A stretch of 64,000 bases of DNA from Podarcis pityusensis (taxonomy: Eukaryota), in the NCBI GenBank assembly GCA_964106645.2, contig OZ067041.1. The stretch is one strand, 5' to 3'. Within the stretch, counting starts at the first letter, position 1. Each line of letters begins with the position of its first letter. Of this stretch, positions 22,201-25,200 are shown one piece after another. Position numbers: made by a program.

Positions 22201-25200
22201 AAGGTCAGCACAAAGATAGCTATCAGCTGTGGAAAAGAATATTTGATAGAGTCACGACAGATCGCTGATCACTGCGATCAGAACATTGCTTGTGAATAAT
22301 GCAGGCAATCAAGTGAAGACTGATGGGAGAAGTTTGGGACAGCAATCGGAAGCAAGTGAACAGGCATGAGAGAATAATTACTTTAAATGTTGCTTAGAAA
22401 GATGTTAGACAAAATGCTTGGATTCTAGAAGACAGCTTCTGTCAAAAGCAAATGCCAATGACTGTAGTTTCAGGGAATGGCAATTTTATTTAATGTTGAG
22501 GGGAAATGAATCACTGTTTGTTTAGTTTTAACTTACCGAGCAACATTTTGAAATCCTTCATAAAAATCTGAAATCTTTTCTTTCATAGGGAGCAAAGCTA
22601 CCCTTGTCAATATGACATTACTTTCTCCCAGTTATCCCTTTTTCATAAAAAAAATGGGTTTGCTGAATATCTGACTATTAATTTGATTGCCTAACACAAA
22701 AAATCCATGAGGAATATATGTTTCTGTGCTAACTATTACTGGCTATTTAGGCAGGAAATTATGATATGAAATACAATATATATGGGGCTATTGAAAAAAT
22801 ACCATAGTAAAACTCATTCTTGCTGTTCTGATTAATGGAAATTTTAATGGAGTCTATGTTTATGAACAATGTTCAGGACACTGTAACTGCTAAATAAGTA
22901 TTTTGACCTAGCAGAAGGTAAAGAAGAAAGATGTGTAAGATACAAAAGCTAACATTTGTTGTTTCTTGTATTTTGGGTTCCAGACACAATGGGTCAGTGT
23001 GTCTGGCTGTTAATTGGAAGGTTGGTGGTTTGAGCCAACCCAGGGGTGGCTGGGGGCAGGATTCCTGCATCGCAGGGGGCTGGACTAGATGACCCTTGGG
23101 GGTACCTTCCAACTCTGCAATTCTTTAATTCCATGGAAACATATTAGTCACCATTCAAACAAACAAACAAAAAAAGATTCAAGGCATAATATATCAAAAA
23201 CTTCTGGAGGAGTAAAAATAATTAAAGAAATTTTTAAAAAATGAAGTCTAGTAGCACCTTAGAAACCAACTAGGTTTGTTCTAGGTATGAGCTTTCAGAG
23301 TATCTGAAGAAGTGTGCATGCACACGCAAGCTCATACCTAGAACAAACTTAATTGGTCTCTAAGGTGCTACTAGACTATTTTTTAATTTGTTAAATCTTT
23401 TTTTAATTTTTTAATTATTTTGCCTGCGTCAGACCAACACTGCTACCTACCTGAATCTAGAATTCTGGAGGAGTGGAAGGGTACTGAAACGGGTGTCACG
23501 GATCAAACATCTAGGTCTCTGACACAGAAGGTGGTCAGGTCCTCTATTCCCATTATACCTTCTCCTATCCAGCACCACTGATGTTGGGGCAGCATCCTTG
23601 CAACTCCCACCCATGCATATCTTAGGTCTGTCATCGTCCAGTATCACCATATACAATGGGTAGAGTAGAGCCACAGATAGTAATGCCACTGCTACATTCC
23701 TCCCACTGTCTCTCACTCAGAAAGAAACCAAATTCCCCTTTCCTGTCATCCTGGTAAGGATCACAAGCAGTTGCCCACAGGTCCTTATCCTTATGTGAAC
23801 AGGAGCACCCCTGTCCCTGAAGGGGTGACCCCACCATGATAGTTGAGCCCTGTGCCCATGGCAACTCTGTCCTATAGGAAGGCAGGCTCTGGAGCACACC
23901 CATATCTCAGCTGTATCCACTCAGCTAGCAATCCAGCAATACCATACACTGCAATCATACAGAAAGATCTCTTATCCAGGCAGGCAGCAACCACACCAAA
24001 AGAGATAAACTCCAGACTGATGCAGGCAAAACACATGCATTATTGTTGACTGGGAACACATACTATGCAGAGGCCAGGATGGGGCCAACCAACCCTTCCC
24101 TGCTTCAGTATGCCTTGCCAAAAGAAGCTGAGAGTAGCTTCTGGTTTTCCAGATTCTCATAACCTGGAAGTGGTCAGAAAGGATGGTGGTGACTAGCTGT
24201 AATCTCTGCCAATTAGGATTATTTCAACTATGGGGCAGTGTTTTTGATCTATTTCAGTGTTAGATGAAGTTGCATGTGTTGTGGTAGACACTCTGTTAGC
24301 ACATCAGTTATTAGACTAGCCTATTAACCTGAGTAAATTCTATCTATATATGAGCTTCCTTGGGGTGATCATTCACAAGCAGAAAGCCACCACTGAAAAG
24401 GCACATTCTCGTGTTGCCACCCTCTGGACTTTCCATGGAGGGGGTCACACAGAGGGTTTCAGATGAGTACTGACTGTAGCACCACTTTAATGTGGAAAAT
24501 CATTCATTTGATAGCTATCTATATAAAATATTTTCTCATGGTACTTGTTTGTCAAGTAGAGGTGTTTTAAAACACATTCTCACTATTACCTGTATGAGTT
24601 GACTCTACCTTTTCATTAAAGATATGCCTTCTTGAGACAAATTGGGGCAGTGTTTTTGATCTACTTCAGTGTTAGATGAAGTTGCATGTGTTGTGGTAGA
24701 CACTCTGTTAGCACATCAGTTATTAGAATTTACTCAGGTTAATAGTCTAGTCTATCTAGATCAGGAGTGGCCTCTGATGTTGAATTACAACTCTCTTTAT
24801 CCTTTGACAATTGGCCAAGCTGGAGGAGGTGAGAGATGGACACCATCAACATCTGAAGGGCACAATGTTAGTTATACATAAAATCCAAAAAAAAATTTCT
24901 ATTATTTATGAAATGCCTTACCAAGTATGTGCTATGCATATCATAAATTCTCCAGTTGTCATTGCCAGTGTTCAGTACTTTAGAATGGCAATATTCATAA
25001 ATTCAAATGTGCATTATATATATATATATCACACATAAAAGGAGAAACACTCCGTTTTAAAATTTGAGTAAATTCTGTTTCTTCCCCAGTTTCATGGCTG
25101 ACTTCTGACTCCTATGCCTAAAATAGATACGTTACTCCTGCATCCTATGTTTAGGTAAATGGCAACCAAATGTGAATGTCTTTTCTTTGCCCTGTTACTT

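What the first reader, a model, noticed from the sequence alone, without database searches (positions are those of the whole stretch)
24231..24754. Fossil multi-step template-switch event (FoSTeS/MMBIR-like) readable at base resolution
Seen: order A(85 bp), inverted B(31 bp, bounded by TAGA/TCTA inverted microhomology), TCTATATA, a 295-bp copy of unique sequence from 21516-21810, then a return to the start of A through TGG microhomology (24643-45), then A and B in normal orientation. The copies differ by about 2% (6/295), so this is unlikely to be an assembly echo. There are no TE hallmarks. Inference: at least four polymerase switches in one repair event.
Basis: partly seen in the sequence, partly recalled or inferred. 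Interest (0 to 1): 0.7.

Follow-up and report, generated by a model that had tools for sequence, protein, structure and literature searches.

The report
Fossil multi-step template-switch insertion
A 412-base patchwork insertion in non-coding vertebrate DNA looks like the scar of one faulty DNA-copying episode in which the polymerase jumped between nearby templates about five times; it is a clear example of a kind of mutation that is already known.

Summary
A (85 bp) occurs twice at 84/85. A 31-bp piece occurs inverted at 30/31. 24348-24645 copies 21513-21810 at 291/298 (6/295 from 24351). TGG is shared at 24643-24645.

There are three refinements:
- The direct duplication is 116 bp (24231-24346 = 24643-24758). 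The 23-bp core is therefore inverted in place between TAGA and TCTA, and which copy keeps the ancestral orientation is unknown.
- The "filler" is templated. CTATCTATATA occurs only 3 times in 64 kb: at the junction and inside both copies of the 295-bp unit (real-sequence control 14 of 59,108). This adds an aborted priming step, making five switches.
- The copies differ by 8/411 (1.95%), evenly across segments (p=0.76). Seven of the 8 differences are transitions and there are no indels.

The pieces have no other copies in the window, no transposon ends, no exon signal and no hairpin.

My best reading is one microhomology-primed serial template-switch repair event of the MMBIR/FoSTeS class. This kind is known: multi-template germline events are already described in humans (PMC8421209). 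Orthologues, long reads and genome-wide copy number could not be checked. I do not take the contig for human.

The parts
21516..21810 (+). Source template 'C' (295 bp; the BLAST match extends to 21513), single copy elsewhere in the window
   Evidence: (family D4). No target-site duplication or repeat marks its ends at this locus, whereas at 24.3 kb its ends coincide exactly with the duplicated 116-bp units. The 24.3-kb copy is therefore the derived one (inference).
21680..21690 (+). Internal 11-mer CTATCTATATA of the source: CTATCTA is the 7-nt microhomology, and TATA is the template of the junction 'filler'
   Evidence: 3 matches in the window, 0.02 expected from shuffles; of 22 CTATCTA sites, only 21680, 24340 and 24515 are followed by TATA.
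24231..24346 (+). Duplicated unit U1 (116 bp): A1 24231-24315, 23-bp core 24316-24338 in opposite orientation to U2, then TCTATCTA 24339-24346
   Evidence: (family D6)
24312..24342 (+). In-place microinversion relative to 24724-24754: a 23-bp core flanked by the 4-nt inverted repeat TAGA (24312-24315) / TCTA (24339-24342)
   Evidence: 30/31 as reverse complement. No stable hairpin (z 0.72 to -0.22).
24340..24350 (+). Junction 11-mer: CTATCTA (end of U1) plus TATA (24347-24350), copied from 21687-21690 in an aborted priming step
24351..24645 (+). Derived copy C' of 21516-21810 (289/295; all 6 differences are transitions)
24643..24645 (+). TGG microhomology shared by the end of C' and the start of U2
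   Evidence: Chance of 3 nt or more of junction microhomology is about 0.05.
24643..24758 (+). Duplicated unit U2 (116 bp): A2 24643-24727, core 24728-24750, TCTATCTA 24751-24758, followed by the right flank

Best explanation
This is a fixed scar of one error-prone replicative repair episode of the MMBIR/FoSTeS class. A nascent 3' end left its template repeatedly and re-primed nearby through very short homologies.

The inferred ancestral state is left flank, one 116-bp unit U (A + 23-bp core + TCTATCTA), then right flank, with a single copy of C 2.4-2.8 kb upstream. Read left to right, the steps are:
1. At TAGA, a switch to the complementary strand, copying the 23-bp core backwards.
2. At TCTA, a return to the original strand, which gives an in-place inversion.
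3. At the end of U, the 3' end ...CTATCTA anneals to CTATCTA at 21680-21686 and adds TATA.
4. It falls off and re-primes about 170 nt further upstream at 21516, with 0 nt of homology (or AT plus a terminal mismatch), and copies 295 nt.
5. At TGG it returns to the start of U and copies U again, then the right flank.

The net gain is 412 bp.

An equally parsimonious version is that a break occurred right after U. All new synthesis (TATA, C', U2) would then form one tract and the inversion would lie in U2, so U1 would keep the ancestral orientation.

Shown: the segments, their identities and the junction homologies. Inferred: a single event, the order and direction of the steps, and the enzymes involved.
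For: - Segment identities and junctions.
- The junction 11-mer CTATCTATATA occurs 3 times in 64 kb (0.02 expected): at the junction and inside C and C' only.
- Of 22 CTATCTA sites in the window, only those three are followed by TATA.
- In the real window, 14 of 59,108 11-mers have a same-strand exact copy in an equivalently placed 298-nt segment, a rate of 2.4e-4. The polymerase therefore touched the C template twice.
- Microhomologies are 4, 4, 7, 0-2 and 3 nt. Chance of 7 nt or more is 3.8e-4, of 4 nt or more 0.016, of 3 nt or more 0.05.
- Divergence is homogeneous: A 1/85, core 1/23, TCTATCTA 0/8, C 6/295. Pooled this is 8/411 = 1.95%; permutation p=0.76; Fisher p=1.0 for U versus C.
- An independent in-place inversion within 116 bp at this divergence is expected about 3.3e-4 times, and any four-point event about 7.4e-4 times (from 4778 events in 48.5% of 2.648 Gb and the 45% type 1-3-2-4 share; PMC5453318 passages).
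- Definite 17-33-nt microinversions are about 1e5 times rarer than substitutions, and all are flanked by inverted repeats abutting the inverted segment (PMC8755829). That matches what is seen here.
- Germline events copying from up to five templates are described in humans (PMC8421209 passages).
- A, the core and C have no further copies in the window.
Against: - No outgroup, population data or reads were available, so a single event is not shown. Homogeneous divergence rests on only 8 differences and has little power.
- One junction (24350/24351) has no clean microhomology.
- 295 nt copied from about 2.7 kb away is longer and more distant than the short local templated insertions catalogued as MMB-TI, which have inverted templates within 100 bp (PMC8421209).
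- No hairpin or long inverted repeat explains why the switch happened here.
- The rate argument borrows primate numbers for a non-primate genome.
- Genome-wide copy number of C and U is unknown.
Confidence: 0.72

Rival explanations
1. Stepwise origin: first a duplication with a templated insertion (U-TATA-C'-U), and later an unrelated 23-bp microinversion in one U copy. Both events are replication errors, but they occurred at different times.
For: The inversion is in place and self-contained. Such microinversions flanked by 4-8-nt inverted repeats occur on their own (PMC8755829; PMC5453318 type 1-3-2-4). The inversion cannot be dated from 1 difference in 23 nt.
Against: The expected number of independent in-place inversions in 116 bp at 1.95% divergence is about 3e-4 by primate rates. 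With the stricter count of PMC8755829 it is about 2e-5 (my own arithmetic). The inversion abuts the CTATCTA used for the next jump: TCTA at 24339-24342 overlaps the 7-nt microhomology at 24340-24346.
Confidence: 0.1
2. Assembly artefact: a chimeric read or mis-joined haplotypes produced a false local duplication.
For: No read evidence could be examined. False duplications from uncollapsed haplotypes are a known assembly error (recalled, not checked here).
Against: - The copies are not identical (8/411). Seven of the 8 differences are transitions, and there are no indels in 411 aligned bases. This is the spectrum of real substitutions rather than long-read error.
- There is no N or gap anywhere in the window.
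- A haplotype mis-join would not bring in a diverged copy of sequence from 2.8 kb upstream, a microinversion and a templated 4-nt stutter together.
Confidence: 0.07
3. Mobile-element or RNA-mediated insertion. The 295-bp unit would be a low-copy transposon or a retro-copied transcript, inserted with an unusually long (116-bp) target-site duplication.
For: The insert is flanked by a direct duplication of the target, as a target-site duplication would be. On the minus strand the insert is followed by TATA-TAGA-TAGA, which loosely resembles a microsatellite tail. Genome-wide copy number was not testable.
Against: - There are only 2 copies in 64 kb, and the other copy lies 2.8 kb away in the same orientation with no target-site duplication. 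The nearest shared flank word, GGTGTG, is not adjacent to its ends.
- There are no terminal inverted repeats, poly(A), LTR or tRNA/7SL head.
- No open reading frame has relatives: the 78-aa frame across the start of C gave 0 hits among 1.84 billion proteins.
- 116 bp is far beyond usual target-site duplications (recalled).
- TATA is explained by the internal 11-mer.
Confidence: 0.05
4. Reverse direction: 24351-24645 is the original and 21516-21810 is the copy.
For: Without an outgroup, the direction of copying is not directly observable.
Against: The ends of homology coincide exactly with the two 116-bp units and the stutter at the 24.3-kb locus. Nothing marks those ends at 21.5 kb. The 116-bp duplication would then need a separate cause.
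Confidence: 0.03

Closest known systems
MMBIR / FoSTeS complex rearrangements (microhomology-mediated break-induced replication; fork stalling and template switching), including germline 'MMB-TI' templated insertions (PMC8421209)
   Same: It shows serial template switches at 0-7-nt microhomologies. Templated pieces come from nearby sequence in both orientations. There is a net copy gain, and several templates are used in one event; up to five are reported in human germline events.
   Different: The scale is intermediate. The 412-bp gain is far smaller than the kb-Mb disease CNVs for which FoSTeS and MMBIR were named (recalled). One template is 295 nt long and about 2.7 kb away in direct orientation, unlike the inverted templates within 100 bp that MMBSearch catalogues. 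It is seen as an old, diverged (about 2%) scar in a non-human vertebrate.
Four-point short template-switch model, type 1-3-2-4 (Loytynoja & Goldman 2017, PMC5453318), and definite microinversions (Potapova et al. 2022, PMC8755829)
   Same: The 23-bp core is inverted in place and creates no new repeat. It is flanked by a 4-nt inverted repeat whose inner edges abut the inverted segment. Its length falls within the 17-33-nt range of definite microinversions.
   Different: Here the microinversion sits inside one copy of a fresh duplication, immediately next to further long-range switches, rather than standing alone.
Polymerase-theta end joining / synthesis-dependent MMEJ with templated insertions
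   Same: The abortive 'prime, add a few nucleotides, dissociate, re-prime' step (CTATCTA + TATA) is the stutter typical of this pathway (recalled; yeast foldback insertions of about 5-34 bp appear in the PMC11724301 abstract).
   Different: A 295-nt tract plus re-copying of 116 nt is much longer than typical inserts of this pathway (recalled). The sequence alone cannot assign the polymerase.
Transposon insertion with target-site duplication
   Same: The insert is flanked by a direct duplication of the target.
   Different: The duplication is 116 bp long. There are no terminal repeats, tail or coding capacity. The donor lies 2.8 kb away in cis, and the junction nucleotides are templated from the donor's interior.

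Membership tests
MMBIR/FoSTeS-type complex rearrangement | Two or more novel breakpoint junctions clustered in cis | tested here: met
   There are five junctions within 24312-24645: TAGA, TCTA, CTATCTA, 24350/51 and TGG.
MMBIR/FoSTeS-type complex rearrangement | Microhomology at the junctions | tested here: met
   The microhomologies are 4, 4, 7 and 3 nt. One junction has 0 nt, or 2 nt with a terminal mismatch. Chance values are given.
MMBIR/FoSTeS-type complex rearrangement | Inserted material templated from nearby sequence, in direct and/or inverted orientation, with copy gain | tested here: met
   All 412 gained bases are accounted for by templates within 2.8 kb. These are U 116 bp (23 bp of it inverted), TATA from 21687-21690, and C 295 bp less the 3-nt overlap.
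MMBIR/FoSTeS-type complex rearrangement | All junctions arose in a single cell cycle or event | not testable with these tools
   This needs outgroups or population haplotypes. Only indirect support is available: homogeneous divergence (p=0.76) and the low expectation of an independent inversion.
MMBIR/FoSTeS-type complex rearrangement | Raised point-mutation density next to junctions (error-prone synthesis) | tested here: inconclusive
   Two of the 6 differences in C' lie within its first 19 nt (binomial p=0.052). There are too few sites, and old divergence is confounded with synthesis errors.
Four-point template switch, type 1-3-2-4 / definite microinversion | A segment of at least 14-17 nt that matches its reverse complement in place, with inverted repeats abutting it | tested here: met
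   The 23-nt core matches 22/23 as reverse complement and is flanked by TAGA/TCTA. The criteria come from PMC5453318 and PMC8755829. The comparison here is between paralogous copies, not orthologues.
Transposable element / retrocopy | Multi-copy in the genome with defined ends; terminal inverted repeats, LTR or poly(A) tail; short target-site duplication | tested here: not met
   Within the window there are 2 copies only, with no terminal repeats or tail, and no target-site duplication at the 21.5-kb copy. Genome-wide copy number is not testable here because no eukaryotic DNA collection is on hand.
Assembly false duplication | Near-identical copies, often next to gaps | tested here: not met
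   The copies differ by 1.95% with a transition-rich spectrum and no indels, and the window has no N. Read support is not testable.

The most novel reading that the evidence does not exclude
The 295-nt tract and the 4-nt stutter were copied from an RNA rather than from DNA. The template would be a transcript running through 21.5-21.8 kb in cis, making this a fossil of transcript-templated break repair in a vertebrate germ line. Nothing in the sequence excludes this: the donor is close by, in the same orientation and unspliced. Nothing favours it over a DNA template either.
Probability: 0.04. Interest if true: 0.6.

Novelty: new member of a known kind. Interest (0 to 1): 0.3.

Why it matters
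The locus is a clean, base-resolution record of serial template switching that became part of a germ-line genome. It combines a microinversion, an aborted priming step, a 295-nt distant copy and a 116-bp re-copy in one place.

It has three uses:
- It is a worked example showing that apparent 'filler' nucleotides at junctions can be templated.
- It shows that a cluster of about 17 mismatches in a linear alignment of the two copies is one inversion.
- It is a test case for tools that detect complex insertions outside humans.

It does not reveal a new mechanism, and no gene or function appears to be affected.

Tried and rejected
- Pfam on 10 long open frames: only a sub-threshold RVT_1 match at 19514-19795 (E 0.068, 13.3 bits against a cut-off of 29.6); the other 9 gave nothing.
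- Exon hypothesis for C: none of the frames of 45 aa or more listed over 21300-25000 looked like coding sequence to my eye. The 78-aa frame 21387-21623(-) had 0 relatives at E<=0.001 among 1.84 billion proteins. The other short frames over C were not searched.
- Naming the organism through transposon-like frames: 19514-19795 (longer proteins) and 20193-20609 both gave nothing.
- Rfam and tRNA scan: 0 Rfam matches at gathering scores. At E<=1 there were 28 matches, all below their gathering scores: miRNA families plus sno_ZL1, SCARNA7 and CrcZ. Most lie on microsatellites and palindromic repeats, none is 7SL or tRNA, and none lies in the finding. ARAGORN found 0 tRNAs.
- Hairpin-driven inversion: DNA folds of both copies on both strands are no better than shuffles (z 0.72, 0.12, 0.38, -0.22).
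- Reading TATA as copied from the (TCTA)n array at 25709-25782: the best match there is CTATCTATATC, which gives 3 of the 4 nucleotides, against 4 of 4 inside C.
- Parsing the junction as one untemplated T plus a C copy starting at 21513 with a mismatch at its third base: possible, but it makes the 11-mer identity a coincidence.
- Literature check of repeat names: a search for 'mir-5408' found 0 papers. A motif from the window's SINE-like repeat was not found in the text of PMC13295347.
- Not attempted: the genome-contig collection holds bacteria and archaea only, so it was not scanned. Supplements of the cited papers were not seen.

Full report
**What the window is.** The window is 64,000 bases with no N and 33-44% G+C in 2-kb bins. 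It carries many di- and tetranucleotide microsatellites and several interspersed repeat families, and I could recognise no long coding frame. This is the make-up of a vertebrate-type nuclear genome. An Rfam scan found nothing at gathering scores. At E<=1 it found 28 matches, all below their gathering scores, and none is a 7SL-type (Alu/B1) or tRNA-type match. The best non-microsatellite matches fall on 136-nt palindromic repeats and go to the miRNA family mir-5408. From memory, that family and the SINE-like tail repeated at 20976-21083, 23051-23134 and 50598-50703 belong to squamate reptiles. I could not confirm this with a tool: searches found no protein relatives, one search found no paper, and one search did not find the motif in the one paper checked. 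I do not take the contig for human.

**The observation.** A BLAST of 24000-25000 against the window and the repeat finder gave three matches:
- 24231-24315 = 24643-24727 (84/85, E 7.6e-39).
- 24312-24342 is the reverse complement of 24724-24754 (30/31, E 7.9e-9).
- 24348-24645 = 21513-21810 (291/298, E 3e-147).

**Refinement 1: the inversion is in place.** Aligning the two units base by base shows that TCTATCTA follows the 23-bp core in both copies. The direct duplication is therefore 116 bp, U1 = 24231-24346 and U2 = 24643-24758. Only the 23-bp core (24316-24338 vs 24728-24750) is reversed, between TAGA and TCTA. This is the in-place type of short template switch: type 1-3-2-4, which makes up 45% of high-confidence human-chimp events (PMC5453318 passages). 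It also fits the description of definite microinversions, which are 17-33 nt long and always flanked by inverted repeats abutting the segment, half of them with 4-8-nt flanks (PMC8755829 abstract and Discussion part 1). Which copy has the ancestral orientation cannot be told from this window.

**Refinement 2: the filler is templated.** The junction reads CTATCTA (end of U1) followed by TATA and then C'. The 11-mer CTATCTATATA occurs exactly three times in the window: at the junction (24340-24350), inside the source (21680-21690) and inside the copy (24515-24525). Shuffles give an expectation of 0.02. Of the 22 CTATCTA sites in the window, only these three are followed by TATA. The (TCTA)n array at 25.7 kb offers at best 3 of the 4 nucleotides. 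As a control on the real sequence, 14 of 59,108 window 11-mers have an exact same-strand copy in an equivalently placed 298-nt segment, a rate of 2.4e-4.

The simplest reading is that the 3' end ...CTATCTA annealed to 21680-21686, added four nucleotides and dissociated. It then re-primed about 170 nt upstream at 21516. This makes five switches rather than four. It also shows that a polymerase engaged the donor region twice, which argues against ligation of a free fragment. The alternative parsing is one untemplated T plus a copy starting at 21513 with a mismatch at its third base. It is possible, but it turns the 11-mer identity into a coincidence.

**Age and authenticity.** The differences between copies are A 1/85, core 1/23, TCTATCTA 0/8 and C 6/295. 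Pooled this is 8/411 = 1.95% (95% CI 0.84-3.8%). The segments show no heterogeneity (permutation p=0.76; U versus C Fisher p=1.0), although eight differences give little power. Seven of the 8 differences are transitions, or 8 of 9 if position 24350 is counted, and there is no indel. This spectrum fits real substitutions (P=0.15 under two-thirds transitions, 0.001 under one-third) and does not look like read error. Two of the six differences in C' lie within its first 19 nt (p=0.052). That is a weak hint that part of the 'divergence' may be error-prone synthesis at the time of the event, in which case the scar would be younger than it looks. With a recalled vertebrate neutral rate of about 1e-9 per site per year, 1.95% between paralogues corresponds to roughly 10 million years. 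This is an order-of-magnitude inference only.

**One event or several.** I used the published counts of 4778 candidate events in 48.5% of 2.648 Gb at 1.13% divergence (PMC5453318). From these, the expected number of independent template-switch events in a 116-bp alignment at 1.95% divergence is 7.4e-4, and 3.3e-4 for the in-place type. The stricter estimate of PMC8755829, microinversions about 1e5 times rarer than substitutions, gives about 2e-5 by my own arithmetic. The inversion's TCTA also overlaps the 7-nt homology used for the next jump. These points make a single episode much more likely than coincidence. The rates are borrowed from primates, however, and the locus was selected for looking complex.

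**What it is not.**
- A, the core and C have no other copies in the window, even at relaxed settings. The only other repeats found in 20.5-26 kb are SINE-like fragments at 20603-21083 and 23051-23161.
- C has no terminal inverted repeats or tail, and no target-site duplication at the 21.5-kb copy.
- C shows no tRNA or 7SL head.
- None of the open frames of 45 aa or more over 21300-25000 looked like coding sequence to my eye. The 78-aa frame across the start of C had 0 relatives among 1.84 billion proteins. The other short frames over C were not searched.
- DNA folding of the inversion region in both copies and on both strands is no better than shuffles, so no hairpin explains the site.
- The ends of the C homology coincide exactly with the U units at 24.3 kb and with nothing at 21.5 kb. 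The 24.3-kb copy is therefore the derived one.

**Mechanism.** The best-supported account is a microhomology-primed serial template-switch episode of the MMBIR/FoSTeS class. Two versions are equally parsimonious.
- In the first, aberrant synthesis runs 24312-24645: inversion, stutter, C', then return to the start of U.
- In the second, a break occurred right after U (24346), and one low-processivity synthesis tract made TATA, C' and U2, with the inversion in U2.

An outgroup showing the core's orientation in the single-copy state would decide between them. Whether the initiating lesion was a collapsed fork or a two-ended break cannot be read from the sequence. Neither can the polymerase involved (BIR machinery or polymerase theta).

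**Comparison with what is known.** Multi-template germline events of this class are already described in humans. [quoted passage not shown] Short template switches and microinversions are catalogued in great apes (PMC5453318, PMC8755829; also PMC7954356, which I saw only in the search listing and abstract start). This locus is therefore a new, well-resolved member of a known kind. It is unusual mainly for combining a 23-bp in-place inversion, a 4-nt stutter and a 295-nt copy from about 2.7 kb away in one scar.

**What stayed unchecked.**
- Orthologous loci, genome-wide copy number of the 295-bp and 116-bp units, and read support.
- The supplements of the cited papers, which hold event lists and length distributions that could refine the rate argument.
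- The gene context of the locus (intron or intergenic), which remains unresolved.

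Noticed in passing
window 39055-39190 and 62521-62656: Two 136-nt near-perfect palindromes (58-nt arms, 20-nt spacer; arms 91% and 88% complementary), and 78% complementary to each other. They look like members of a MITE-like repeat family. Their best Rfam matches, to mir-5408 and mir-609, are below gathering scores. The first is bracketed by 97-nt inverted repeats at 37469-37565 / 39202-39298 (89%), which may be the ends of a larger DNA transposon.
   Followed up: partly
window 23238-23384: Another palindromic element (57-nt arms, 33-nt spacer, 89% complementary) lies about 850 bp upstream of the event, next to a 20-bp tandem repeat at 23379-23421. 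It gives sub-threshold Rfam matches to MIR8562 and mir-129.
   Followed up: no
window 20976-21083, 23051-23134, 50598-50703; inverted partial copy 20603-20689: A SINE-like tail family at 73-80% identity. I recall it as resembling the squamate Sauria SINE / Bov-B tail, but this was not confirmed by any tool. Upstream at 19514-19795 there is a weak reverse-transcriptase-like frame (Pfam RVT_1, E 0.068, below cut-off).
   Followed up: partly
window 5023-5272, 57721-57970, 58519-58768: A 250-nt repeat family, each copy carrying a 16-bp unit (GGTTACATACRCTTCA) in 2.4 tandem copies. The last two copies are 92% alike and lie 798 bp apart.
   Followed up: no
window 25709-25782: A (TCTA)n microsatellite of 19.5 copies lies about 950 bp downstream of the event. 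It shares the CTATCTA motif used as junction microhomology. TCTA-rich sequence may have favoured mis-priming here (speculation).
   Followed up: partly
window 21727-21740 and 24562-24575: A perfect 14-bp palindrome, GTGTTTTAAAACAC, lies inside both copies of the 295-bp unit, away from any junction.
   Followed up: no
window 19236-19414 and 43326-43504: A 179-nt direct repeat at 85% identity, 24 kb apart, probably an interspersed repeat.
   Followed up: no
window 46430-46494 and 46813-46877: 65-nt inverted repeats, 92% complementary and 318 nt apart. They may be the terminal repeats of a small non-autonomous DNA transposon.
   Followed up: no
window 1323-1786: Overlapping open frames of 99-146 aa on both strands lie over a stretch containing 16-bp tandem units (TTCGCAAGACGAAAAA). 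They are most likely repeat-driven rather than coding.
   Followed up: no
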